A stretch of DNA of 64,000 nt from a virus (IMGVR_UViG_3300037258_000374:10805-74804), one strand, 5' to 3'. Positions 1,074 through 24,797 are shown, counted from the first letter of the stretch. Made by a program: numbers and translations. The notes: generated by a model from the sequence alone, not told the origin.

Positions 1074-2658
1074 TGCGCGCCGCCGGCATCGAACAGCGCG
1101 TTGTCGGCGAGCAGTCCGGCGCGTCCTTCGTCGATGACGTAGTCGAGGTTCACCAGCTTGCGCATCGCCGCCGATGTCGGTCCGCTGTCGGAATACCCGG
1201 CGCGCGCGCGGATCTCTTCGCGCGTCAGCGACTGCGGCCACGCATCGCAGATCACCGTGAGCATATTCTTCTCTGCGGTGTTCAGCCTGGATCCCGACAG
1301 CAGCATTGCGCGGAGGGCGTCTCCCTTGGGAAGCGGCGTGAACGGCCCGAGCGCCTGGAGGCCGGCGTTCGTCACAATGAGTAACTCTCGCTCCTTGATG
1401 GCCCAGCCGTTGGTGACGAGCGCGCGGATCGCGGCCGAAGTGGGGCCGCTGTCGGCGTAGCCGGTCGCGATGCGGAGCTTCTTGAGCGTCAGGCCCTCCG
1501 GGCGCTCGGCAAGCGCGGTCAACATCGACCGCTGGATGCGAGGTATCGCCCCGTCCGTCCGCGGCTTGGATTCGCGCCACGTCACGGTTCCATCGCCGTT
1601 ATCGACGAGCGCGACCTTGCGCATGCGCATCGGCGCCCCCGTCGGCGGCGGCATCTTGATCAGCGTCGACTGCGATGGCATCGGCGGTAGCTGCGTGAGC
1701 GCGGTCGGCCGCGTCATCTTGACGAGGATCGCCATGATGGTGCGGTCGGTCTCGGCGCGGATGCCTTCGACGCGCTTGAGAACCGCCTCGGCGTCGGCGC
1801 CGAGCTGGCTGGAGACATCCTGCAGCCGCTCGATCATCTTGTCGGCGCGCTTCGGATCGAGCTGGACGATCTTCGCAGGCTTTGGTTGCTTCGTGGTCAG
1901 CGCGGCCGACGCACGTGCGGCTAGCTGCTTCTCGAGGTCGATGACGCGCGCCCGGAGCGCCCTCGGATCGTTTGCCTTCATCTGTTCGACCGTGGCGGCG
2001 ATCGTTTTGCCAAGCCGAGCGATATCGACCTGGGCCAGAACCTTGGGCGCGAACGCACGCTCGCCGGCCTTCGGTCGACCTGGCCGAGGACGTTCTTCGA
2101 TAGCACCTGCGGGCACTGCGTGATCAGCGTGCAGCCGATGCCGCGCTGGCGACCACGGCGCACGATGTCTTCGGCGGCTCCGAGCGTGCGGGCTTCCTCT
2201 CCGAACGGCCGCTGCGGCGCGACTGTGTCGGCCTCGTCGATGAACAAGTGCAGCACGTCGCGGTTACGGCGGTACAGCGTCTCGAGGAACGCCGCCATGA
2301 ACCGCAGCGCCTCGCCCTTACGGAACGCCGACAGGTCAACGATCGCCGAGAAGTGCTCTGTCGCGATCGCATCGGCGATCACCTCTCCAGCGGTTGGCTC
2401 GAGCGGCACGTCGCCATGCTCGCCACCGAGGACCGCGATCGGATAGCCCGCCGATTTACCATCCGCTGATGAACGAAGCCCATGCCAAGCGCCTACCGGG
2501 TCGACGACCACAATCTGCTGTCCAGCGTCGAGCAGTTCCTCGGCCTCGACACTAGCGGTGTAGCTCTTGCCACTGCCCTTTTTGGCGAGGATCGCCTGCG
2601 TCCATGTGACGAAGCCTATCGGCAGCGAGAACGTCGGAGAGATTTTCAGCTTCTTCAT
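1070..2658 (-). pseudogene. HerA/FtsK-like ATPase with C-terminal winged-helix repeats, broken near nt 2074
   Basis: Walker A AKKGSGKS, Walker B LFIDEAD and RRGRQRGIG..LITQ lie in ORF 1978..2823 (likely ATG 2658). The C-terminal half (PKAGERAFAPKVL..., two similar GYxDSGPTSAA HTH units) is in another frame, 1070..2116. Confidence 0.7.
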
Positions 2659-2984
2659 GATGGTTGCTTGTGCTCCACGATCAGCGTTGAAAGCTTGGTG
2701 CGCGAGAAGTCGTATTGGATGCGGATCGGCGGCTCCCCGCGCAGCGCGGCCGATTGGTCGAGCGAGCATGTCACGGTGAGCGCCATCATCTCGGCATGCT
2801 TGGTGACGCCGAGCTTGCTCCACATCCCGAGACCGACCTGGACAAGGACCGCCGAGCGAATCATCAGCGCGAGCCGGCGCAGTGCGCTGTCATCGGCCTC
2901 GATGCCTTCGAGCTTGGATACTGCTGCGCGATGCGCGATGTCGATCAGTCGAGTCGCCTCGACGTTGGTCTGGAACTCACGCAT
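2655..2984 (-). CDS. Hypothetical protein
   Basis: 109 aa ORF with overlapping start/stop coupling on both sides. Confidence 0.55.
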   Translation of the reverse strand: MREFQTNVEATRLIDIAHRAAVSKLEGIEADDSALRRLALMIRSAVLVQVGLGMWSKLGVTKHAEMMALTVTCSLDQSAALRGEPPIRIQYDFSRTKLSTLIVEHKQPS

Positions 2985-3228
2985 CGGCAGCCTTTCTGCT
3001 CATCGCTGCGTGAAGATCCGCGATCAAGCCGGCCGCGCCCTCGCCGCACTGGCATTCGTTGACGTGCTGGCCGATGAACGAGAGCTGCATCAGCCGAGCG
3101 TGCGCCGGCCACTTGTCCATGATGGCGGCGATGCCGGAGAAAAACTGCGCCTGCTCGTCGTCGGTCATCGCGCAGAACGACATCGCGAGTTCGGCTGGAG
3201 ATAGCTGGACATCGACCGTGACCTTCAT
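2977..3228 (-). CDS. Hypothetical protein
   Basis: ATG 3228 overlaps the upstream TGA; MKVTVDVQLSPAELAMSFC... Confidence 0.55.
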   Translation of the reverse strand: MKVTVDVQLSPAELAMSFCAMTDDEQAQFFSGIAAIMDKWPAHARLMQLSFIGQHVNECQCGEGAAGLIADLHAAMSRKAADA

Positions 3229-4328
3229 GCCGCCGCCTTCGGGAACGCCGCGTGCTGGACGCCGTCGAGATACGGCAGCTCGATGACACCGCCGCTCTTG
3301 CGTTTGGAGCCGTCGCCGGCCCCGAGTGGAACGCCGACTCCATCTTCGGGTCCCTCGACGGTGCAACCGCACGAGTACACCGCCGTGTCATGGGACACGA
3401 CGTACGCTTTCACCGGCCGTCCGCACGGCCTGTCGCCGTTCGGGTTGTCGGAGTCGCCGCATCTGCCGAGGTCGGTCTCTTGCGCCTGTTTTAGGAAGTA
3501 CGGCACGCCAGCCGCCGCGCACTGATCGCGGATCGATCGCAGCCATTCGACGTTGCACGGCCGCGCTCCAGGTCCGCTCTCGCAGCCGGCGATTACCCAG
3601 TCGACGCCGCAGCAGTGGTCGCTCGTAAGCCAATCTAGGCCGTCCTCGTGGAGCGTCACCGGACCGAGCAGCGGCTCACAACTCAGGAACCGCACCGCGG
3701 CCGGTGTCAGCAGTAGCTCCGGGATGCGCTCGTCGGCCGCTTCCTGATTCTCGACGCTGACGCCTAACCACAGATTCTCCAGCGGCCAACTCGAGCAGGT
3801 GTCTTCGGTCCCCTCGCAGTGCTTGAGCCACGCATCGCCAGTCATGCCGGCCTTCGACGCGAGGTGATTCAGATAGGTCGCATCGTAGAGCGCCGGAGAT
3901 GTACGCGTCACGATGCCGTCGCTGGCAGCCCACTCGAACCACTCGCGCATCCGCTTCGCGCGCTTGGTCAACATCTGGTACGTGTGCTGCGGCGTCGCGG
4001 CCATCACGCCGAAGACCGCGGCGATCTGCTCGTTGGAATAGCCCTCGTGGAACATGTCGGTCATCGAGTTGACGAACACCGTGCTCGGCTGTCGCCATCG
4101 CATAGGCTCGCCGAGCTTGTGCGGAGCGAGCCGGACCGTGCCGTTCCACTTGCCCGTGCGCAAGTTGATGAGGCCCTGCGACCAGCCGCTCTCCGCGAAC
4201 CGCGCGGCAAGGCGTTCGGCATAACACGCCTGGCACCCCGCGCTCACGCGCGAGCAGCCCTGGCCCGGGTTCCACGAGCGACCGACGGTGCCGGGGCGAT
4301 GCGTCCAGCTGATCGAGGTCTCACCCAT
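3225..4328 (-). CDS. Phage Gp37/Gp68 (DUF5131) family protein
   Basis: TSISWT..WNPGQGCSRVSAGCQACYAE, VFVNSMTDMFHE, HTYQMLTKR, NLWLGVSVENQ, RFLSCEPLLGP, DWVIAGCESGPGARP. Confidence 0.9.
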   Translation of the reverse strand: MGETSISWTHRPGTVGRSWNPGQGCSRVSAGCQACYAERLAARFAESGWSQGLINLRTGKWNGTVRLAPHKLGEPMRWRQPSTVFVNSMTDMFHEGYSNEQIAAVFGVMAATPQHTYQMLTKRAKRMREWFEWAASDGIVTRTSPALYDATYLNHLASKAGMTGDAWLKHCEGTEDTCSSWPLENLWLGVSVENQEAADERIPELLLTPAAVRFLSCEPLLGPVTLHEDGLDWLTSDHCCGVDWVIAGCESGPGARPCNVEWLRSIRDQCAAAGVPYFLKQAQETDLGRCGDSDNPNGDRPCGRPVKAYVVSHDTAVYSCGCTVEGPEDGVGVPLGAGDGSKRKSGGVIELPYLDGVQHAAFPKAAA

Positions 4329-4995
4329 CGGAGCCGTCTCCTGGAATCGGCATCACGATCGGCGTCGGCAGCTCCTGGCGCCTGGGGACTGGCTGCGGGA
4401 TCGGCCCCATGATCAGACGCTCCGGCAACAGCTTGAGCCGCTCGTCGAATGAGCGCTGGCCAACCTCGTCGATCACGCGTCTTAGATCGTCGATGTCGCT
4501 GTTCTCGTTGCACAGCGCGACTGCGGCTGCAGCAACCGGATGGTCGGCGCCGAGCTGGGCGAGCAGCTCGCGGATCCACTCCGCCTGCGCCTTGAGCACG
4601 CGCCCCATCTTCGCCATGTCGGGCACGAGATGAGCCGGCAGCCCAGGCGGCGGCGGAATCGGAACACCGCTAGCGGTGCCGATGCCCATCGAGCTGCCGG
4701 CGTCTTCCGACACGCGCCGCGGACCCGACCTCGGCCCACGGTCGCGCACGGCATCCTCGAGATTCTCGATCTTCGTGATCGCGTGCTCGATGTTCCAACG
4801 CGTGCGCTTGACCTCTTCGGCGAGCTTGCTGTCCTTTAGCCATTCGCGACGTCGCCATCGCAACTCCGACGCCATCGCTGCGATCTCATCGGAGTCGGAG
4901 TCGGCATCGTGCGCCACGGCCGATGCTTCGATCTGCACGAGTCGATCGTCGCTGAGGTGACCAGATTCTGCCTTGGATTTGCTCATGGTCATCAC
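4321..4995 (-). CDS. Hypothetical protein
   Basis: 224 aa ORF packed in the operon. Confidence 0.55.
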   Translation of the reverse strand: MMTMSKSKAESGHLSDDRLVQIEASAVAHDADSDSDEIAAMASELRWRRREWLKDSKLAEEVKRTRWNIEHAITKIENLEDAVRDRGPRSGPRRVSEDAGSSMGIGTASGVPIPPPPGLPAHLVPDMAKMGRVLKAQAEWIRELLAQLGADHPVAAAAVALCNENSDIDDLRRVIDEVGQRSFDERLKLLPERLIMGPIPQPVPRRQELPTPIVMPIPGDGSDG

Positions 4996-16979: not shown

Positions 16980-18862
16980 TGCGGCCGGGCAGCATCTCGC
17001 TCGATGGCGCAGGCGACTTCGTCGTCCGCTGTCCGCCGCACGTCGCGATCAAGCTGCGGCGCGTGTTCGGCGGCGTGCAACGGCGCGGTGCCGGCTATTT
17101 CACTATCAGCGCGACGTCGGGCAATGCGTACGAGCTGCAGTGGTTCCGGCAGCGGTATCCGCTCGATCTGGAGCAGGACGCGGCCGACAGGTTCGAAGCT
17201 CTGCGCCTAGCCGAGGAGCATCGGCTCGCGTCGATCGCCGAGCTCGAGGCGGCCGACTACATCCCTCGGAAGTTCGATCTCGCGCTGCCGCCGCGCGAAT
17301 ACCAGCGCGTCGCGGCGGACCTCGCGCTGCGCACGGGCTCGCTGCTGGTCGCCGACGAACTCGGGCTCGGCAAGACGATCACCGCGATCTGCGCGCTGAC
17401 GGCGGAGGGCAAGCTGCCGGCGCTCGTCGTGACGATGACGCACCTGCCGAGGCAGTGGGAGGTTCAGCTGCAGAAGTTCGCGCCGTCGCTGCGCGCGCAT
17501 CGCATCCGCAAGGGAACGCCGTACGACTTCGCGAAGATCAAGTTCGAGACGGACGCGAGCGGCAAGCGCATGCGCATCCCGCGGCCGGGCATCCCAGACG
17601 TGATCATCTGCAACTACCACAAGCTGTGCGGATGGGCCGATACGCTCGCGCAGCTATGCAGGTCGGTCGTCTTCGACGAGGTCCAGGAGCTTCGGCACGC
17701 CGGGACGAACAAGTACATCGCGGCGCACGCGATCGCCGGCAGCGTCCCGCTCCGAATCGGGCTGTCGGCGACGCCGATCTACAACTACGGCGCCGAGATC
17801 TACTCGGTCGTCGAGGCGATCGCGCCCGGCGCGCTCGGCACGCGCAAGGAGTTCTACGACGAGTGGTGCGGCGGCGCGAACCCTGGCTCCGACCAGGACG
17901 CCCGGAAGGTCTGCGTCGCGGATCCGGTCGCGCTCGGCACGTATCTGCGCGAGTCCGGCCTCATGATCCGCCGCACGCGGAAGGAGGTCGGTCGCGAGCT
18001 GCCGCCGCTGACCATCGTGCGGCATGCGATCGAGGTCGACCCGGCGCGCATCAACGAAGCGACGGCGGACGTAGCCGAGCTCGCCTCGCGCGTGCTCGCG
18101 CGCACTGGCAGCAACTTCGAGCTGATGAAGTGGTCCGGCGAAATCGACTACCAGATGCGCCAGGCGACCGGCATCGGCAAGGCCGGCGCGGTGATCGACT
18201 TCGTGCGGATGCTCGTCGAGGCCGGTGAGCGCGTGGTGCTCTACGGCTGGCATCATGAGGTCTACGCGCTGTGGCGCTCGGCACTCGACAAGCACGGCAT
18301 CTCCTTCGCGATGTACACGGGCAGCGAGAGCGAGACGCAGAAGTCTGATAGCGTGCAGGCGTTCATCGATCACAAGGTCAACGTGCTGATCATCTCGCTG
18401 CGTGCTGGCGCCGGGCTCGACGGGCTGCAGCACGTCAGCCGCACGGTGGTGATCGGCGAGCTCGACTGGTCTCCGCAGGTCCATCAGCAGAACATCGGCC
18501 GCGTCTATCGCGATGGCCAGCTCGAGCCGTGCGTTGCGTACTACCTCGTCGCCGAGGAGGGCAGCGATCCGGTGATCGCCGACGTGCTCGGGCTGAAGGA
18601 TGCGCAGGCGACCGGCATCATCGATCCTGATCGCGCGGGCGTCGCGCATCTGGTCGGCTCCTCCGAGAGCCACGTGCGAAAGCTCGCCGTCGAAGTGCTG
18701 CGCCGGCGCGGTATCGAAGTGCCAGACGAACAAGACGACTGCTCGCAAGGCGATGATCGCGGCTGCAGCATGCACGGCGATCCCGGCAATTGCCCAGCGC
18801 CACCGGAGCCGTCGCTCGAACTGGCTCCGCAACTCGGCCTAGCGCTAGGGTCCTCGCGATGA
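16979..18862 (+). CDS. SNF2-family helicase/ATPase
   Basis: PREYQ, LLVADELGLGKT, VVFDEVQ, LSATPIYN, SLRAGAGLDGLQ, QNIGRVYRDGQ. Confidence 0.9.
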   Translation: MRPGSISLDGAGDFVVRCPPHVAIKLRRVFGGVQRRGAGYFTISATSGNAYELQWFRQRYPLDLEQDAADRFEALRLAEEHRLASIAELEAADYIPRKFDLALPPREYQRVAADLALRTGSLLVADELGLGKTITAICALTAEGKLPALVVTMTHLPRQWEVQLQKFAPSLRAHRIRKGTPYDFAKIKFETDASGKRMRIPRPGIPDVIICNYHKLCGWADTLAQLCRSVVFDEVQELRHAGTNKYIAAHAIAGSVPLRIGLSATPIYNYGAEIYSVVEAIAPGALGTRKEFYDEWCGGANPGSDQDARKVCVADPVALGTYLRESGLMIRRTRKEVGRELPPLTIVRHAIEVDPARINEATADVAELASRVLARTGSNFELMKWSGEIDYQMRQATGIGKAGAVIDFVRMLVEAGERVVLYGWHHEVYALWRSALDKHGISFAMYTGSESETQKSDSVQAFIDHKVNVLIISLRAGAGLDGLQHVSRTVVIGELDWSPQVHQQNIGRVYRDGQLEPCVAYYLVAEEGSDPVIADVLGLKDAQATGIIDPDRAGVAHLVGSSESHVRKLAVEVLRRRGIEVPDEQDDCSQGDDRGCSMHGDPGNCPAPPEPSLELAPQLGLALGSSR

Positions 18863-19428
18863 TCGCAGCGCTGATCCGGTGCCTCGCGCTCGCCGCCCGC
18901 GCCCATGCGGCGTGGCCGGAGTACTCGATCGCGGACGTAACCGCCGCATCCTGCGCGGCGGTTGGCGCCGCCGATCCGGGCGTCCCGGCCGAGCTCCTGC
19001 TCGCAATCGCGCAGCACGAGAGCGACCTGCATCCCAATGCGGTGAGCTGGGTCGCGACCAGCGGCCGAAGGGTGGATATCCTGTGGACGCGCGACCGCGC
19101 GCCGCCTGAAAACAAAGCGTTGGCATGCGGTTACGGGCAGACGATTGTCCACACCAGCCGCGCGTGCGCCGATGTGATCGCCGATCACGGTGGTCTCGTG
19201 ACCGCGGAGCACGAGCTCGCCGCGTGGCTGCGGTCGCCGCTGAGCGGCGGTTCTCTGCGTGTCGCGCTCGGCGGCTACGCCGGCGGGATCGCTGGCGCGC
19301 GCGCGGCGCGCGAGGGTATCGACGCTCTGGCGGTCCGCTTCGCCGATCTCTTCATCGCTCGCGCGAGACGGTTAACGATGCAGTCGGTGACTGTCATAGT
19401 AGGGTCCAATCAGTGGAGGAATCGATGA
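18859..19428 (+). CDS. Lytic transglycosylase (SLT)-like protein with N-terminal signal-like segment
   Basis: GVPAELLLAIAQHESDLHPNAVS (catalytic ES motif), ACGYGQ, ALGGYAGG. Confidence 0.6.
   Translation: MIAALIRCLALAARAHAAWPEYSIADVTAASCAAVGAADPGVPAELLLAIAQHESDLHPNAVSWVATSGRRVDILWTRDRAPPENKALACGYGQTIVHTSRACADVIADHGGLVTAEHELAAWLRSPLSGGSLRVALGGYAGGIAGARAAREGIDALAVRFADLFIARARRLTMQSVTVIVGSNQWRNR
19400..19405 (+). promoter_or_regulatory. -10 box (TAGGGT) upstream of the first pentamer unit
   Basis: Same hexamer that precedes many other genes in this genome; predicts a start near 19412, ahead of unit 1 and the Cas7-like gene. Confidence 0.5.
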
Positions 19429-19436
19429 TCTAACCG

Positions 19437-19506
19437 CACCCCGCACCGCGTCGCAGCGCAGCGCTGCGCCCCGCAGCACAGCGCAAAGCAGAGCCCTAAC
19501 GGGTCA
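19437..19506 (+). ncRNA. Putative guide-like RNA unit 1: (CGC-NN)x11 plus hairpin
   Basis: cacCC cgcAC cgcGT cgcAG cgcAG cgcTG cgcCC cgcAG cacAG cgcAA agcAG, then AGCCC-TAAC-GGGTCA. The repeat is seen directly; RNA function is inferred. Confidence 0.6.
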
Positions 19507-19583
19507 ATCGGCCAGCGAGTCCAGTACCGACATTATGTCCGTCAGCGACTCCAGCGCCCCAAACGACAGCAAGAGGAATCTCA

Positions 19584-20168
19584 ATGCAGACGGTACGCGC
19601 AGTTCTGAAATCCATCAGTCCCTATTCGCAGTCCAAGTATGTCGACAAAGACGAGCACCCCAAAAACGGCAAGGAGAGCGCCGACGACTACGAGAAGCGC
19701 ACGTGGCAAGCGCGAGTGCATCTCGACGACAAAGGCGCTCCGTACATGCCGCCGATGGCGCTGAAGAAGTCGCTCGACGCCGCGAGTGCCTACCTCGGGA
19801 AGATTCCCGGCGAGCGCAATGCGACCTACGTGAAGCGATTCAAGTCTGGGCTGCTCGTTACCGACAACATCCCGCTCCGATCGAACGGCAAGCCGGTCAC
19901 GAAGATCGACGACTTCGAGGGCGAGTGGCTATTTCTCGATGCTGGTGGCAAGGCCGGCCAAGGATCAACGCGCGTCAAACGCCGCATGCCTCGGCTCCGC
20001 GAGTGGGAGGTCACAGCAACGATCTATCTGATCGACGAGATCATCACACTCGATGTGCTGCGCCGCGCCCTCGAGGATGCCGGCCGCTTCGTCGGCGTCG
20101 GTCGCTTCCGCCCGCAGGTCGGAGGATTCTACGGTCGCTTCCTCGTCAAATCGCTGGAGGCGGTATGA
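19584..20168 (+). CDS. Stand-alone Cas7/RAMP-like protein
   Basis: AAGAGGA SD. N-terminal strand VRAVLKSISPY; PYMPPMALKKSL resembles the RAMP 'P.IPgsslKG.lR' motif; thumb-like GGKAGQGSTRVKRRMPRL; C-terminal Gly-rich loop AGRFVGVGRFRPQVGGFYGRF. Confidence 0.7.
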   Translation: MQTVRAVLKSISPYSQSKYVDKDEHPKNGKESADDYEKRTWQARVHLDDKGAPYMPPMALKKSLDAASAYLGKIPGERNATYVKRFKSGLLVTDNIPLRSNGKPVTKIDDFEGEWLFLDAGGKAGQGSTRVKRRMPRLREWEVTATIYLIDEIITLDVLRRALEDAGRFVGVGRFRPQVGGFYGRFLVKSLEAV

Positions 20169-20659
20169 CGTTCAAGAGCGGTCGCCGGCCGATCGAAATC
20201 GTTTCGAATCGTCAACCTCACAAGCTCGCGATCATCGCGCTCGTGGTCACGACCAAGCCAGGCGATATCATCCACGATCCAGAGATCGATCGCGCAACGA
20301 ACTCCACGCTACAGGTCTGGAGCAGCGCCATGCAGTCTGCTCGGCGCGTGCTCGCCGTGGAGCACGGCATCGAGCTCAAGCGCGAGACGAAGCTCGGATA
20401 TCGGCATCTCAAACCGGAAGAGAAGCCTGGCGCGGCAGATCGTCAAATGAACCGCGCGCGCAACCGCGTGAAGACCGCGAAGCGAATCGTCGATTCGATG
20501 ACACAGGGCCAGTTTGACGAGCTGACGCCAGCCAATCAGTCGGTGCACGTCCAGACCCGCGCGCGCGTGCTCTTGACGCATGACATGATGTCGCCCAAGC
20601 GTCAGCGCGAGATCGCGGTCGCGGCGAACTCGAAGGAGAGGCCGATGCTGCCCAAGTAG
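20165..20659 (+). CDS. Basic 164-aa protein coupled to the Cas7-like gene
   Basis: ATGA overlap with the Cas7-like stop; MTFKSGRRPIEIV...; wHTH-like first half (SARRVLAVEHGIELKRETKLGYR) followed by a helical half. Confidence 0.65.
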   Translation: MTFKSGRRPIEIVSNRQPHKLAIIALVVTTKPGDIIHDPEIDRATNSTLQVWSSAMQSARRVLAVEHGIELKRETKLGYRHLKPEEKPGAADRQMNRARNRVKTAKRIVDSMTQGQFDELTPANQSVHVQTRARVLLTHDMMSPKRQREIAVAANSKERPMLPK

Positions 20660-20670
20660 AATCGACGATG

Positions 20671-20811
20671 CGCAGCGCTTCGCCTCGCATCGCGTCGCTC
20701 CACAACGCACTGCAGAGCCCGCAAGGGTCACCAACGATTTCATCGCCACGCGGCGCGTCGCTCCGCATCGCGGCGCATCGCAACGCATCACAGAGCCCGC
20801 AAGGGTCACCA
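20671..20811 (+). ncRNA. Putative guide-like RNA units 2 and 3: (CGC-NN)x9 and x10, each plus hairpin
   Basis: Unit 2, 20671-20733: NN = AG TT CT AT GT TC AA AC AG. Unit 3, 20744-20811: NN = CA GG GT TC AT GG AT AA AT AG. Both end in the identical CAGAGCCCGCAAGGGTCACCA. Confidence 0.65.
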
Positions 20812-20847
20812 CGCAGCCGACGCCGACAATGAAGTATCGTCGGCGTC

Positions 20848-21294
20848 ATGAAACCGCCCGAAGAGCTGGTCGCAGCGTTCCGCGCGCTCGTCGACAAGGC
20901 GAGCGAAGGGATAGCGATGCTGCTGGTCGACAATGGATTCGACGCCGCGACGATGCGCGTGCTCGCGGCGTGGCCGCATCTCGAGCATGGGTGGGAGCAG
21001 CCGAAGCGGCCGTGCCCGAGCTCGATGCCCACGCCTGCCGCATGGCGCTGGCTTGTCAGCGGACACCGATACGAGGCGCAGCAACTCGCCGACGCCGCCG
21101 GCGTAACGATTGCGATCGCACGCGCGAAGGCCACGATGCTGCTCGGCGCTCGGCTCGCGCTGCCGGACGGGACGATCACGTCCAGCGCGAGCGCCGCTCT
21201 CGCAGCGCATGCACGGCGCGCGCTGGGGCTCAAGTCGAAGGCCAAGGACAAGCAGTCGCGCGGTCGAATCGCTAGCGATGACGATGCGAACTGA
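20848..21294 (+). CDS. Hypothetical protein
   Basis: 148 aa; TATCGT -10 lies 7 nt upstream of the ATG. Confidence 0.55.
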   Translation: MKPPEELVAAFRALVDKASEGIAMLLVDNGFDAATMRVLAAWPHLEHGWEQPKRPCPSSMPTPAAWRWLVSGHRYEAQQLADAAGVTIAIARAKATMLLGARLALPDGTITSSASAALAAHARRALGLKSKAKDKQSRGRIASDDDAN

Positions 21295-21670
21295 GGCACG
21301 ATGCCGATCGATGCCGTGTCCGCACAGCACGCGTCCCGATGCAGATCCGAAGTCGTGTTCGCTTTGCATCGGCGCAGTCGCGCGACCTGTGTGCCGCGAT
21401 CCGATCACCGGCCTCTTCACGATCGACGGGAAGCTAGTCACCACGCGCGCGTTTCAGCCACCGACCGCATCACGCTACGCTCAGGTACTGAAGCGGCGCC
21501 GAAGCGCTGGCGAAGATCCAGACGAGTAGTTGCGTTCGCGATCCGCTCCGGACTATCGGATGCACGGGATGCGTGAACGTCAGCGGCGGATGGACCAGCT
21601 GATCGGTGAGCTCGTGGCGATGAGGCTCCGAGTCGACGAGATGTCAGCTGCCCGTGATAGGGTTCGCAGC

Positions 21671-21871
21671 ATGGAAAACAAACCGACCATCGGGCGCATC
21701 GTGCACTTCCTCCACAGCGATGGAGGCAAGCGCGCCGCTATCATCACCGCCGTCCACAACGACGAGTGCGTGAACCTCGCGGTCTTCCCGCCGAGCGGTC
21801 CTTCGTACAGCGAGACCAGCGTGCTGATGGGCGCCGACGCTGGGCGCTGGTGCTGGCCGACGCGCATCTGA
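21671..21871 (+). CDS. Small conserved phage protein
   Basis: KPTIGRIVHF...AAIITAV...VNLAVF...WCWP; leaderless -10 TAGGGT. Confidence 0.65.
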   Translation: MENKPTIGRIVHFLHSDGGKRAAIITAVHNDECVNLAVFPPSGPSYSETSVLMGADAGRWCWPTRI

Positions 21872-22271
21872 GGATTGCCCCGGTACGCGACACAGCCAAG
21901 CTGCTGTACGAGGCGTACATCGCCAACAGCGAGGGCCTGAACTACCAGGGCTTGCCGTGTCCGCAGTGGGATGACCTGACGCCAGCGGTGCGCTCGCATT
22001 GGTGCGCGTCCGCGATCGCCGCGACCACCGGTCAGCCAGTGATCAGCCTACGCGCGCAGGGTGTCGACTGCGGGATGTGCGAAGACAACGTGCCGCACAT
22101 CCACGTCCACCAAGCTACGCCAGCGCAGCTCGTGCTCGCGCTCGGCGAGGCTTCCACGGCCCATCGCCAGCTCGTGCTCGACAACATGGCGCTCAAGCGA
22201 AAGGTCCAGCACTGGAGGCAGCGCGCCGCTCAGCATGGCTGCAACATCGATGGCGGCGACGCGGACTGCGG

Positions 22272-23015
22272 ATGATCGCGTACCTGAGCCACACGCTCGG
22301 CAGCTCGAACGGCATCGATTCCGTTCGCCGACAGGACAACATCGCGAACGCGATCTCGTGGCTCGACTTCCTCGTGATGCACACGACCTGGGCGATCACG
22401 TTGCCGTGGCTGCCGTTCGTCATGACCGAGCACGGCGCGCGAGAGGTGCATCGGCCGCGCGGTTTCGCGGACCAGATTCGCATCCTGCAACGATGCGATG
22501 CGATCGTGCTGGTCGGCGGCATTATCAGCCCACACATGAACCACGAGATCGACATCGCTCGTCGAGGCCACATCGCCATCGTCGACCTGAGCGATCTTGG
22601 ACGGCATCCGCCGGACAGCGAGGTTACGGACAATGCGTTCCGAGCGCTGCTAGCCGATCGCGCCCCGCGCTGCGCTCGCCGAGCGTGCCAGCGCGCAGTA
22701 GGTGTTCGCGCGGGGCGCCGCGCCCGTGTTAGCCTGCTCGGCATGCCGACCAACGACGAGACCAAGAAGCCGGACGTGGCCGGGAACGCCCCGGGCACGT
22801 CGCCGGAGACCAGGAAGCCGGACGTGGTAGCCGCGAGCGCGAAGGCGGTCGAGCCATCCAGGGCCGAGGCCGCGAAGCCGGCCGCGCCGGTGGCGCGCGT
22901 GATGCGCACGGACACGCCAGCGCGCCCTTCGATGAAGGCGGCCGCGCCCAAGAAGGGCGGCAGCAAGCCGCCGTGGAAGGGCGGCCACTGGAGGCACTTC
23001 CACCCCTGGAAGTAG
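22272..23015 (+). CDS. Nucleoside 2-deoxyribosyltransferase-like (DUF4406-like) domain reading through into a separate low-complexity ORF (ATG 22743)
   Basis: IAYLSH, ILQRCDAIVLVGGIISPHMNHEIDIA; the second part has its own TGT-TAGCCT-N7-ATG. Confidence 0.5.
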   Translation: MIAYLSHTLGSSNGIDSVRRQDNIANAISWLDFLVMHTTWAITLPWLPFVMTEHGAREVHRPRGFADQIRILQRCDAIVLVGGIISPHMNHEIDIARRGHIAIVDLSDLGRHPPDSEVTDNAFRALLADRAPRCARRACQRAVGVRAGRRARVSLLGMPTNDETKKPDVAGNAPGTSPETRKPDVVAASAKAVEPSRAEAAKPAAPVARVMRTDTPARPSMKAAAPKKGGSKPPWKGGHWRHFHPWK

Positions 23016-23059
23016 CGCCGCGGCGCTGATCGTCAGAGCGGCGCAGTAGGGTCGCTCGC

Positions 23060-23677
23060 ATGTCACACGCGAAACATGCAGAGCAGATCTACGGCGCTGT
23101 GGAGCCGGGCTCGATCGAGCCGCCCGCGCCGATTCCATTTCGACCAGCGGGCGACCGCATCGTGGTCAAGCAGAACGCGCTCGACCCGATGACGGTCGGC
23201 GGCGTGATCAAACGACCAGACCGCGAGTCGGACTGGACCGCGTTTGGTGTCGTGGTCGCTGTCGGGCCCGGCGAACGCAACAAGCTCGGCGAGCGCATCC
23301 CGCTCACGCTCAAGGTCGGCGATCAGGTCGTGTACGACTTCCGCCGCGGGCGCGAGGAGCGCGAGGTGCAGCACATCTGCGGTCCTCGGATGGTGATCCT
23401 GCACGAGCACGAGGTCGCAGCCGTGATCGACGCCGATGACACGTGCGAGCATCCTGCGCTCACGCGGTGCACGAGCTGCGCGACGGTGATCTGCAGCGAC
23501 TGCATCGAGCCCGTGCTCGAGCATCGGTTCGCGAGCAGCTACATGCGCGAGAGCGGCGCGACGTGCATGCCATGTCGTGTCGCGACCGAGGATGTCGACG
23601 ACACCAACAGGTTCAAGCGCGAATCCGATTGGACCGCGCGGGACGCGGCCGGCGTGCCGGATGGCGGTCCGGCGTGA
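23060..23677 (+). CDS. GroES/Cpn10-like co-chaperonin with C-terminal Cys-rich extension
   Basis: FRPAGDRIVVK, TVGGVI, GVVVAVGPG, LKVGDQVVY, ILHEHEVAAVID. Confidence 0.8.
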   Translation: MSHAKHAEQIYGAVEPGSIEPPAPIPFRPAGDRIVVKQNALDPMTVGGVIKRPDRESDWTAFGVVVAVGPGERNKLGERIPLTLKVGDQVVYDFRRGREEREVQHICGPRMVILHEHEVAAVIDADDTCEHPALTRCTSCATVICSDCIEPVLEHRFASSYMRESGATCMPCRVATEDVDDTNRFKRESDWTARDAAGVPDGGPA

Positions 23678-24797
23678 TGTCGTCATCGCTGATTGGCCGC
23701 ATCGCGTGGTTCATCGGTGCTGAACTCGAGCACGAGCAAATCGGCCAGATCGTTGCGGTCAATTTTCGCGAGGTCGGCGCCGAGCTGCTCGTGTTGCTTG
23801 GCAACGGACGCCTTCAGGTGTGGCCGACCGATCGGGTAGAAATCAACAAGCCCGTGGAGAAGCCGTACGAGCGACCACCGCCAACGAGCATGCCTGGCTC
23901 CGACAAGAGCATAAAATGAACGGCTACCAGACCCCGGACGGGACCCGTTACGTCATCGGGCCCGGCGGTGATCCGGTGCGCGCGCGGTTCCACATGATCC
24001 TCGGGATGACGTGGATCGGATGGCTGAACTTCTGCGTGCTGCAGTGGTTCGGCGTGCGCCTGATCTACACCGTGCGCGACGATGGAGGCATGCGTGTCAA
24101 AGGCGCTCGGCTGCGGTGGCCGATGACGCGCTGGCACATGACGTGGGACCTCGCGGGCATCGTGCCGCTGATGTTCAGCTTGCCGGTGCTCGTGATCGCC
24201 GCGCTGGTATGGTGGTGGGCATGCAGTATGTGATCGCCATCATCGGATTCGTTACGATCGTCTCGCTTGCGGTGTTCGCGGTCGTCCACCGCAAGCCGAG
24301 CGTGATGCACGCGCCGACTCCGATGCACTGCCCGGATGCCCTGGACAGGTCAATGGAGTGCGTGGGCGACGACCAGCGCGTGTACATCTGCGTGAAGGAG
24401 TACGGCGACGAGCAGCTCGACATCTTCTGCGCGGTGCGCACGCCGTGAAGGTCGGTAAGTTGCCCGAGTCGCTGCCAGCGGTGCGGACGCGAGCGCTCAC
24501 GTTCGACGACCTCGACGACCTGCTCCGGCAGATCCGCGAGTCGGTGAAGGCGCCCGAGCCGTGGCCTCGAGCGCCGAGACCGGTGCAGCGATGAAGCGCC
24601 TGCTCCTGCTCCGCATACTCGTGCACCTCGTGATGCGTGCGCGCTCGTACGCGATGCAGGCAGCGATGGACCTATGCGCCCGAGGCGAGCCCGTACCCGA
24701 GTTTTTGCTGCTGTACGAGCGGGCGCTCGACTACCTGCTGACCCCCGAGTCGGCGGTGTACGGCCGGGGCGCACAGCCAACGCGCGAAGGCCGATAG
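23677..24797 (+). other. Run of small hypothetical ORFs, two with predicted TM segments
   Basis: Approximately 23677-23919, 23916-24233, 24221-24448, 24445-24594 and 24591-24797. Confidence 0.5.

What the first reader, a model, noticed from the sequence alone, without database searches (positions are those of the whole stretch)
19437..20811. Three distinct dinucleotide messages in the pentamer units, with a covarying terminal hairpin
Seen: unit 1 NN = CC AC GT AG AG TG CC AG AG AA AG; unit 2 = AG TT CT AT GT TC AA AC AG; unit 3 = CA GG GT TC AT GG AT AA AT AG. The last AG is fixed and probably belongs to the handle. The NN strings differ between units and in units 2-3 are much more AT-rich than the genome, which slippage of a microsatellite would not produce. 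The hairpin keeps the GCCC/GGGT stem but swaps the loop (TAAC vs the GNRA loop GCAA), suggesting selection on RNA structure. Speculation: read as NN-x triplets, the reverse complements give plausible codon-position-1/2 peptides (unit 1 L-F/L-L-L-G-H/Q-L-L-T-V-G; unit 2 L-V-F/L-D/E-T-I/M-S/R-K/N-L), so the gap could skip the wobble base. A few spot checks found no self-target, but I did not search the window exhaustively.
Basis: partly seen in the sequence, partly recalled or inferred. Interest (0 to 1): 0.85.

Follow-up and report, generated by a model that had tools for sequence, protein, structure and literature searches.

The report
Phage VIPR guide RNAs, CGC-scaffold type
The three pentamer-repeat units are guide-RNA genes of a VIPR system, a CRISPR-like RNA-guided DNA silencer of phages first described in 2026; this copy uses C-G-C instead of the published G-G-Y as its fixed letters, and its targets could not be found.

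Summary
Three intergenic units (19437-19507, 20666-20731, 20744-20809) each hold 9-11 CGC-NN pentamers followed by the same tail, AG-AGCCC-N4-GGGTCA. They flank two overlapping genes.

The first gene (19584-20168) is a small RAMP/Cas7-like protein. Its family profile matches the solved 'SUSP1 Vipr protein' (PDB 36pp, E 1e-10), and its model matches Cas7/Csm3. All 12 viral relatives found in IMG/VR carry period-5 arrays beside the gene. This is a VIPR system: Vipr, a vap-like winged-helix partner and three vrRNAs. VIPR was described in bioRxiv preprints from April to October 2026, and this scan has already met it in at least 402 genomes.

I could not show it here. There is no self-target, no exact IMG/VR match for guides 1 and 3, and the matches for guide 2 and for guide 1 in metagenomes are at control level.

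The hairpin is conserved but shows no compensatory change, so it is not 'covarying'.

The local variants are a CGC scaffold, Arg where SUSP1 has the G1-reading Asp177, and a simple tetraloop tail. It is a new member of a known kind.

The parts
19437..19507 (+). vrRNA1. It has 11 pentamer units in the register scaffold-NN: CAC-CC, CGC-AC, CGC-GT, CGC-AG, CGC-AG, CGC-TG, CGC-CC, CGC-AG, CAC-AG, CGC-AA, AGC-AG. The 3' tail follows: AGAGCCC-TAAC-GGGTC at 19490-19505. The unit lies between the stop of the upstream SLT-like ORF (19431-19433) and vipr.
   Evidence: Same position as the single upstream vrRNA of SUSP1 (paper 10.64898/2026.04.26.720920, read).
19584..20168 (+). vipr gene (P0001, 194 aa). 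It encodes a minimal RAMP/Cas7-like protein with the G-loop G171-V-G-R174-F175-R176-P177.
   Evidence: The family profile A1 hits PDB 36pp_D 'SUSP1 Vipr protein' at E 9.7e-11. The single sequence hits it at 4.5e-5, aligned 126-183 to 129-186. The AF2 model has pLDDT 94.2. Foldseek top hits are type VII Cas7 and Csm3, E 3e-7, probability 1.00. The protein matches phrog_4652 and no Pfam family. It has 334 homologues, all unnamed.
20165..20659 (+). vap-like partner gene (P0002, 164 aa). Its start overlaps the vipr stop (ATGA). The model shows a winged helix at residues about 18-81, then a helical hairpin.
   Evidence: A partner of about 160-170 aa follows vipr in 9 of the 15 other loci examined. 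P0002 is 28% identical to the L004 partner, E 1e-10. Its similarity to the LESphi2 partner is weak, E 1e-3. The AF2 model has pLDDT 77 with an H-E-H-H-E-E topology. Foldseek gives only weak winged-helix hits, E >= 0.03.
20666..20731 (+). vrRNA2. It has 9 units from 20671: CGC-AG, -TT, -CT, -AT, -GT, -TC, CAC-AA, CGC-AC, TGC-AG. A degenerate CGA-TG unit may precede them at 20666. The tail AGAGCCC-GCAA-GGGTC lies at 20714-20729.
20744..20809 (+). vrRNA3. It has 10 units: CGC-CA, -GG, -GT, -TC, -AT, -GG, -AT, -AA, -AT, CAC-AG. The tail AGAGCCC-GCAA-GGGTC lies at 20792-20807. With vrRNA2 it forms a two-unit array downstream of the genes.

Best explanation
The region 19437-20809 is a complete VIPR (Viral Interference Programmable Repeat) locus of an uncultured 74.8-kb soil phage. 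It holds vipr, a vap-like winged-helix gene and three vrRNA genes, one upstream and two downstream, all on the + strand.

By homology with the SUSP1 system, one Vipr protomer should bind each pentamer of the transcript. The fixed triplet, here C-G-C, would be flipped out and held between neighbouring protomers. The two variable bases of each unit would be presented for pairing. The filament would then recognise double-stranded DNA that reads NNxNNxNN..., with one base skipped per unit, usually the wobble base, and silence transcription of that gene. The target is most likely in a rival phage, prophage or satellite. The constant AG-AGCCC-tetraloop-GGGTCA end is the 3' tail that caps the filament.

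Shown here: protein homology and fold, array anatomy, fixed scaffold against variable NN, linkage of arrays to the gene in all relatives found, and no self-target. Inferred from the family: transcription, filament assembly, the 1-nt skip rule for a CGC scaffold, and silencing. Unknown: the targets and the host.
For: (1) Protein. Profile A1 matches PDB 36pp 'SUSP1 Vipr protein' at E 9.7e-11 and P0001 alone matches at 4.5e-5. The AF2 model has pLDDT 94. Its best structural matches are Cas7 of type VII and Csm3, E about 3e-7.

(2) Linkage. All 12 IMG/VR loci with a homologue, and Pseudomonas phage LESphi2, carry period-5 arrays next to the gene on the same strand. One of the two genome hits (Allocoleopsis, L017) also has arrays. 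The other (Bryobacterales, L016) has none within 4 kb.

(3) Array statistics. Over 376 units in 35 arrays of 7 CGC-type phages, information content is 1.60, 1.34 and 1.88 bits at the three scaffold positions and 0.05 and 0.00 bits at the NN positions. The units per array here (9-11) fall in the published range of 9-16.

(4) Diversity of NN. The nearest relative in hand (L004, Vipr 67% identical) has the same tail, and its four arrays spell NN strings unlike the window's three.

(5) Architecture. One vrRNA upstream and an array downstream of vipr-vap is the SUSP1 layout.

(6) Self-targeting. The best 1-nt-skip matches in the phage's own genome are 16/22, 13/18 and 14/20. That is shuffle level and below the 80% threshold used in the papers.

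(7) Scaffold readers. In the alignment, F175 and R176 stand where SUSP1 has W178 and R179, which contact G2 and Y3. Those two bases are kept here. Asp177, which reads G1, is Arg174 here, where the base is C. LESphi2, which has GGC arrays, keeps Asp.

(8) Composition. NN GC is 0.45 against locus GC of 0.55-0.68. Of the three codon phases, positions 1-2 fit best.
Against: No target was found. Guides 1 and 3 have no exact 1-nt-skip match in IMG/VR.

Guide 2 (16 specified bases) has 40 matches, of which 20 are distinct and 1 lies in a GC-rich contig. The control with the same units in reversed order gives 31, 20 and 1.

Guide 1 has 9 exact matches in JGI metagenomes. They fall into about 4 independent groups, near my rough estimate of about 2 in-frame matches by chance, which was not tested with a control scan.

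The NN composition fits a uniform model (-4.0 bits) slightly better than the codon position 1-2 model (-4.08).

The scaffold is not the GGY for which the skip rule was measured. The equivalents of SUSP1 H17 and R138 are absent or replaced.

No sigma-70-like promoter was found before any unit.
Confidence: 0.85

Rival explanations
1. It is a VIPR-family locus, but the CGC scaffold is decoded differently from SUSP1. The skip length could differ, the substrate could be RNA or single-stranded DNA, or only some of the units could be used. The published NNx rule would then not predict its targets.
For: The residues that read the scaffold differ: D177 becomes R174, R138 becomes M135, and the H17 loop is missing. 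No 1-nt-skip target was found in IMG/VR or in one metagenome scan. NN composition is near uniform and not clearly codon-like.
Against: The skipped target base in SUSP1 is set by a thumb-bundle pocket, not by the scaffold pocket (paper .720927). The period of 5 and the two variable bases are unchanged. Missing targets are expected for a soil phage with an unknown host. The 0-, 2- and 3-nt rules also found nothing in the phage's own genome, apart from each guide matching itself at 3 nt. The 0- and 2-nt rules found nothing in the relatives' loci either.
Confidence: 0.1
2. The arrays are not guides. They are binding sites, on RNA or DNA, for a multimeric regulator, as with TRAP's 11 triplets spaced by 2 nt or with iterons. 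They would control expression of the two enclosed genes, and the NN bases would be mere spacers.
For: A triplet plus a 2-nt spacer repeated 9-11 times resembles the TRAP site (my own knowledge of the system). In relatives L012 and L013, arrays often end just before an RBS and start codon.
Against: The adjacent protein is a RAMP homologous to a solved Vipr, not a TRAP-like or DNA-binding fold. Spacer bases that carry no information would drift with the genome's 65% GC, but NN GC is 0.45. This rival does not explain several arrays per locus that share one tail yet spell different NN strings.
Confidence: 0.03
3. The units are a degenerate mini-CRISPR-like array. The hairpin AGAGCCC-N4-GGGTC would be the repeat, and the stretches of about 57 nt between hairpins would be spacers. 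Alternatively they are a microsatellite made by slippage.
For: Two hairpins lie 78 nt apart. There is a weak Rfam CRISPR-DR20 hit at 20737-20774, E 7.6, well below the gathering score.
Against: The 'spacers' are themselves strictly periodic, with 8-9 exact CGC at period 5. That is not a property of acquired spacers. I saw no cas1 or cas2 among the neighbouring genes scanned. Slippage gives identical units, not fixed triplets with random dinucleotides.
Confidence: 0.01

Closest known systems
Type II VIPR system of Escherichia phage SUSP1 (Vipr, vap1, four vrRNAs; PDB 36pp; bioRxiv 10.64898/2026.04.26.720920, .720927 and 10.64898/2026.10.15.759431)
   Same: A small single-RRM RAMP with a G-loop and thumb. 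A small partner gene downstream. One guide upstream and an array downstream. Guides of 9-16 pentamers with three fixed and two hypervariable bases, followed by a constant 3' tail. Encoded by a phage. No self-target.
   Different: The scaffold is CGC, not GGY. The G1-reading Asp177 is Arg174, the thumb Arg138 is Met135, and the His17 loop is absent. The tail is a 4-bp stem with a tetraloop rather than a pseudoknot. Only the C-terminal half aligns by sequence. Transcripts, binding and targets are untested here.
VIPR locus of Pseudomonas phage vB_Pae_LESphi2 (OQ594955.1; genes annotated as hypothetical)
   Same: The Vipr homologue is 194 aa and 29% identical (tblastn E 2e-8). A 163-aa partner overlaps its stop, as here. 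The arrays lie on the same strand as the gene.
   Different: It has three canonical GGC-NN arrays, all upstream, with a GGGCTG tail. The G-loop reads C-D-Y-R.
Non-canonical VIPR arrays reported from genomic-language-model surveys (YNNNG, NNNGG and NNNNG in 10.64898/2026.04.26.720920; GAC/NN, CAC/NN, WGT/NN and TGH/NN in 10.64898/2026.10.21.760802)
   Same: Period-5 arrays of about 10 units with an alternative fixed trinucleotide, next to a protein with a Vipr-like fold. C-NN-CG fits the published pattern 'YNNNG'.
   Different: CGC/NN is not named in the text I could read of the two papers I searched for it. Figures are not held. No experiment exists for any non-GGY scaffold.
Class 1 CRISPR backbone proteins (Cas7 of type VII, Csm3 of type III)
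   Same: Same fold, and the best structural matches. A thumb that breaks the guide-target duplex periodically.
   Different: I saw no CRISPR array, cas1/cas2 or other cas genes in the neighbouring genes scanned. The period is 5 with 3 guide bases sequestered, not a period of 6 with one base flipped.

Membership tests
VIPR system | Vipr protein: a minimal RAMP (single RRM, glycine-rich loop, thumb) homologous to described Viprs | tested here: met
   Profile against PDB 36pp 'SUSP1 Vipr protein', E 9.7e-11. Single sequence, 4.5e-5. AF2 pLDDT 94. Foldseek hits Cas7/Csm3 at E 3e-7.
VIPR system | vrRNA genes: 9-16 tandem pentamers with a fixed trinucleotide alternating with hypervariable NN | tested here: met
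   There are 11, 9 and 10 units. Clade-wide information is 1.6, 1.3 and 1.9 bits at the scaffold against 0.05 and 0.00 bits at NN.
VIPR system | Canonical GGY scaffold (YNNGG) | tested here: not met
   The scaffold is CGC (C 0.94, G 0.88, C 0.98). It fits the alternative 'YNNNG' named in the methods of 10.64898/2026.04.26.720920. The locus is therefore a non-canonical member, not an exclusion.
VIPR system | Invariable 3' tail after the repeat tract | tested here: met
   AG-AGCCC-N4-GGGTCA follows all 3 units and all 4 units of L004. It is a simple hairpin, unlike the SUSP1 pseudoknot.
VIPR system | Two-gene locus with an accessory vap gene predicted to interact with DNA | tested here: inconclusive
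   P0002 overlaps the vipr stop, and a partner of about 165 aa is syntenic in most relatives. The model shows a winged-helix topology, but Foldseek hits are weak, E >= 0.03. No sequence of a published vap was available for comparison.
VIPR system | vrRNAs are transcribed and co-purify with Vipr | not testable with these tools
   The only run that holds the locus is DNA from a soil metagenome.
VIPR system | NN strings match DNA of rival mobile elements under the 1-nt skip rule (>=80% of NN), with no self-target | tested here: inconclusive
   No self-target: best matches are 70-73%. No target above control level was found in IMG/VR, in one metagenome scan or in related loci.
CRISPR-Cas | Array of identical repeats of 25-40 nt with unique spacers, plus cas1/cas2 or an effector cas operon | tested here: not met
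   I saw no such repeats. The only Rfam hit is CRISPR-DR20 at E 7.6. Neighbouring genes are a helicase, an SLT-like gene, a GroES-like gene, terminase and portal.
TRAP-type RNA-binding attenuation site | An 11-mer ring protein of the TRAP fold that binds (G/U)AG triplets | tested here: not met
   The adjacent protein has a RAMP fold, and the triplet is CGC.

The most novel reading that the evidence does not exclude
The fixed triplet of the guide and the Vipr pocket that reads it have co-diversified within one Vipr clade. The pairs seen are CGC with G-loop Arg, CTC with Thr, GAC with Ser or Phe, and GGC with Asp. This would create mutually orthogonal Vipr-vrRNA pairs. A rival phage or satellite could then not load its own 'solo' guides onto this phage's Vipr, which is the hijacking described for SUSP1 satellites. 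Under this reading the CGC scaffold is a lock-and-key escape variant, and residue 174 is a specificity switch that could be used to build orthogonal programmable silencers.
Probability: 0.3. Interest if true: 0.55.

Novelty: new member of a known kind. Interest (0 to 1): 0.3.

Why it matters
It settles what the odd pentamer units are: three guide-RNA genes of a VIPR system. The two enclosed 'hypothetical' genes therefore get names. It also shows that a reader without tools re-derived the published gapped code from the sequence alone.

For the VIPR field the locus adds a clean, compact example of a non-GGY scaffold: two genes, three guides, a 16-nt tail. Alongside it comes a set of relatives in which the scaffold triplet changes together with one G-loop residue. 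That is a direct lead to how Vipr reads its scaffold and to orthogonal Vipr/guide pairs. It does not change the picture of the system itself, which is already in print.

Tried and rejected
1. TRAP-like or iteron-like protein-binding array. This was my first reading. I dropped it once the neighbouring protein proved to be a Vipr homologue.

2. Rfam scan of 17000-24000 at E <= 10. It gave only chance-level hits.

3. Self-target scan of the whole 74.8-kb genome with gaps of 0-3 nt against 200 shuffles. Nothing was found except each guide matching itself at gap 3.

4. Exact 1-nt-skip scans of IMG/VR.
- Guide 1 (20 nt) gave 0 hits and guide 3 (18 nt) gave 0 hits.
- Guide 2 (16 nt) gave 40 hits, nearly all in AT-rich, unrelated phages.
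- The one GC-rich hit of guide 2 (L142/G001, 17/18, skip bases on wobble positions of ORF 857-1195) is matched by one GC-rich hit of the reversed-order control.
- The other two guides do not hit that contig.
- The 2-nt and 0-nt versions gave 17 and 22 hits.

5. Scan of JGI metagenomes with guide 1. It gave 9 hits. Five are one gene family, a flippase-like membrane protein of about 490 aa in contigs of 73-76% GC. The total is near my rough chance estimate, and guides 2 and 3 do not converge there.

6. Relatives' loci as targets. None was found.

7. Host assignment.
- The large terminase has no close isolate (best 32%; Myxococcus phage Mx4 30%).
- GTDB genomes gave only Bryobacterales and Allocoleopsis MAGs at 42-44%.

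The closest homologues (77-84% identical) could therefore not be fetched to compare their NN strings.

9. No RNA holder is listed for the locus.

10. The promoter and terminator scan found nothing before the units.

Full report
WHAT IS THERE. The window is part of a complete 74.8-kb IMG/VR virus record with direct terminal repeats. It comes from a soil metagenome. Almost all genes run on the + strand, and GC is about 65%. Between an SLT-like ORF that ends at 19433 and an ORF that starts near 20848 lie two overlapping genes. These are 19584-20168 (P0001, 194 aa) and 20165-20659 (P0002, 164 aa). They are flanked by three non-coding units.

There are 11, 9 and 10 pentamers of the form CGC-NN, and in a few units the scaffold is CAC, TGC or AGC. 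Each tract is followed by AG-AGCCC-N4-GGGTCA. That 16-mer motif occurs exactly three times in the phage genome and nowhere else. Perfect period-5 CGC runs occur only here.

HOW IT WAS IDENTIFIED. Twelve IMG/VR contigs encode a homologue of P0001 at 37-67% identity. A blind scan for any trinucleotide repeated at period 5 found arrays in every one of them, on the same strand as the gene. The fixed triplet depends on lineage:
- CGC in most loci.
- GAC in L008 and L015.
- CTC in L009, L010 and L017.
- GGC in L007 and in Pseudomonas phage LESphi2.

P0001 has no Pfam family. It has 334 unnamed homologues. A profile of 39 of them hits one solved structure, 36pp, 'SUSP1 Vipr protein', at E 9.7e-11. 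P0001 alone hits it at 4.5e-5. The AlphaFold model (pLDDT 94.2) matches Cas7 of type VII and Csm3 of type III at E about 3e-7 and probability 1.00.

A text search for 'pentanucleotide repeats' in phage papers led to the VIPR preprints. In those, Vipr is a minimal RAMP. vrRNAs are 9-16 YNNGG repeats with a constant 3' tail. One protomer binds each repeat, the GGY bases are sequestered, and the NN bases pair with double-stranded DNA while skipping every third target base, usually the wobble base. The result is transcriptional silencing of rival phages and satellites. The SUSP1 locus has vipr, vap1, one vrRNA upstream and an array downstream. That is the layout seen here.

MEMBERSHIP. The features met are:
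- The protein.
- The array anatomy and unit number.
- Fixed scaffold against variable NN. Over 376 units from 35 arrays in 7 CGC-type phages, information is 1.60, 1.34 and 1.88 bits at the scaffold and 0.05 and 0.00 bits at NN.
- A constant tail.
- A phage location.
- No self-target. The best matches are 70-73% of NN, which is shuffle level and under the 80% threshold of the papers.

The partner gene is probably a vap. A gene of about 160-170 aa follows vipr in most relatives. P0002 is 28% identical to the L004 partner (E 1e-10) and weakly similar to the LESphi2 partner (E 1e-3). Its model (pLDDT 77) has winged-helix topology followed by a helical hairpin. That agrees with the 'predicted DNA-binding' vaps of type II, but Foldseek support is weak.

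The feature not met is the canonical GGY scaffold, because the triplet here is CGC. Written as C-NN-CG, it fits the 'YNNNG' alternative named in the first paper's methods. A later preprint reports 21 clusters with other fixed triplets, such as GAC/NN and CAC/NN. CGC/NN itself is not named in the text I could read of the two papers I searched for it. The figures are not held.

WHAT IS SPECIFIC TO THIS COPY. The HMMER alignment to SUSP1 Vipr is gap-free across the G-loop. SUSP1 G174-V-G-D177-W178-R179-P180 aligns to G171-V-G-R174-F175-R176-P177 here. According to the cryo-EM paper, D177 and H17 read G1, W178 and R138 hold G2, and R179 holds Y3. In this phage G2 and Y3 are kept, and so are the aromatic residue and the arginine. 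G1 is C, and D177 is Arg.

The residue before the thumb proline is Met instead of R138. The stretch that holds H17 in LESphi2 is an insertion that this clade lacks. Across the 16 aligned Viprs the residue at position 174 follows the scaffold:
- Arg in all CGC loci.
- Thr in the three CTC loci.
- Ser or Phe in the two GAC loci.
- Asp in LESphi2 (GGC), as in SUSP1.

L007 (mixed GGC/CGC arrays) and L016 (no arrays) also carry Arg. This pattern is confounded by phylogeny and rests on few lineages. It is still a concrete lead to the scaffold-specificity determinant.

The tail is a 4-bp GCCC/GGGU stem with loop UAAC, GCAA or, in L004, GAAA. The stem never varies, so there is no covariation. Its folding energy alone is unremarkable.

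THE 'MESSAGES'. The three NN strings differ from each other and from the four strings of L004, which shares the tail. Between the very close pair L012 and L013, homologous arrays differ at 22 of 182 NN positions against 14 of 273 scaffold positions. NN GC is 0.40 in the window and 0.45 in the clade, far below the locus GC of 0.55-0.68. Among the codon phases, positions 1-2 fit best. A flat distribution fits slightly better still. So composition is compatible with the wobble-skip logic but does not prove it.

- Own genome: nothing at any gap.
- IMG/VR exact scans at a 1-nt gap: 0 hits for guides 1 and 3.
- Guide 2 in IMG/VR: 40 hits, of which 20 are distinct strings and 1 lies in a GC-rich contig. 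The same units in reversed order give 31, 20 and 1. The 2-nt gap gives 17 hits and the 0-nt gap gives 22.
- The GC-rich hit of guide 2 (G001, 17/18, skip bases on wobble positions of an unnamed ORF): the other guides do not support it.
- Guide 1 in JGI metagenomes: 9 exact matches in about 4 independent groups. The largest group is the first transmembrane helix of a flippase-like gene in 73-76% GC contigs. The total is near my rough estimate of about 2 in-frame matches by chance, which was not tested with a control scan, and there is no convergence of other guides.

No target is identified. Given an unknown host and a soil origin, this does not weigh much against the family assignment. It does mean that the code is inferred here, not shown.

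VERDICT. This scan has reported VIPR loci in at least 402 other genomes. The locus is a new, tidy member of a known kind with a non-canonical CGC scaffold and a simple hairpin tail. The most useful by-product is the co-variation between scaffold and G-loop residue among its relatives.

Noticed in passing
L004-L017 and L160 (relatives of the vipr gene): The fixed triplet of the arrays depends on lineage: CGC, GAC, CTC or GGC. It tracks the residue after the second glycine of the Vipr G-loop: Arg, Ser/Phe, Thr or Asp. The third scaffold base (C) and the following Arg are kept throughout.
   Followed up: partly
L012 197-3011 and L013 1790-5268: These two related phages carry 10-11 arrays each, spread between several genes. 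Their short tail is CGCAACGCAACG. Several arrays end just before an RBS and start codon, and some abut each other. They may be the 'staggered' architecture named in the VIPR paper.
   Followed up: no
L016 (Bryobacterales MAG, CAVOPN010000020.1) 4001-4555: A Vipr homologue (44% identical) with a partner gene but no period-5 array within 4 kb on either side.
   Followed up: partly
L160 = Pseudomonas phage vB_Pae_LESphi2 OQ594955.1, locus 2094-3573: This isolated P. aeruginosa LES prophage has an unannotated canonical VIPR locus. Three GGC-NN arrays lie upstream of two 'hypothetical' genes, next to the cI/cro region.
   Followed up: partly
window 20819-20847: A 9-bp GC-rich hairpin (GACGCCGAC...GUCGGCGUC) lies directly after vrRNA3. 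It spans the candidate start codons (20829, 20848) of the next gene and has no U-tract. It could mark the 3' boundary of the guide array or occlude the start codon.
   Followed up: no
L152, L153, L155, L157, L158 (JGI metagenome contigs, 73-76% GC): Guide 1 decoded at a 1-nt skip matches exactly (20/20) the codons for FLLGQLLTVG. These lie at residues about 27-36 of a flippase-like membrane protein of about 490 aa. I judged the match to be chance-level.
   Followed up: partly
window 23060-23677 and 21999-23015: The phage encodes a GroES/Cpn10-like protein with a C-terminal extension that gives weak B-box zinc-finger hits. It also encodes a 338-aa protein with weak DUF7768 / nucleoside 2-deoxyribosyltransferase-like similarity.
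   Followed up: no
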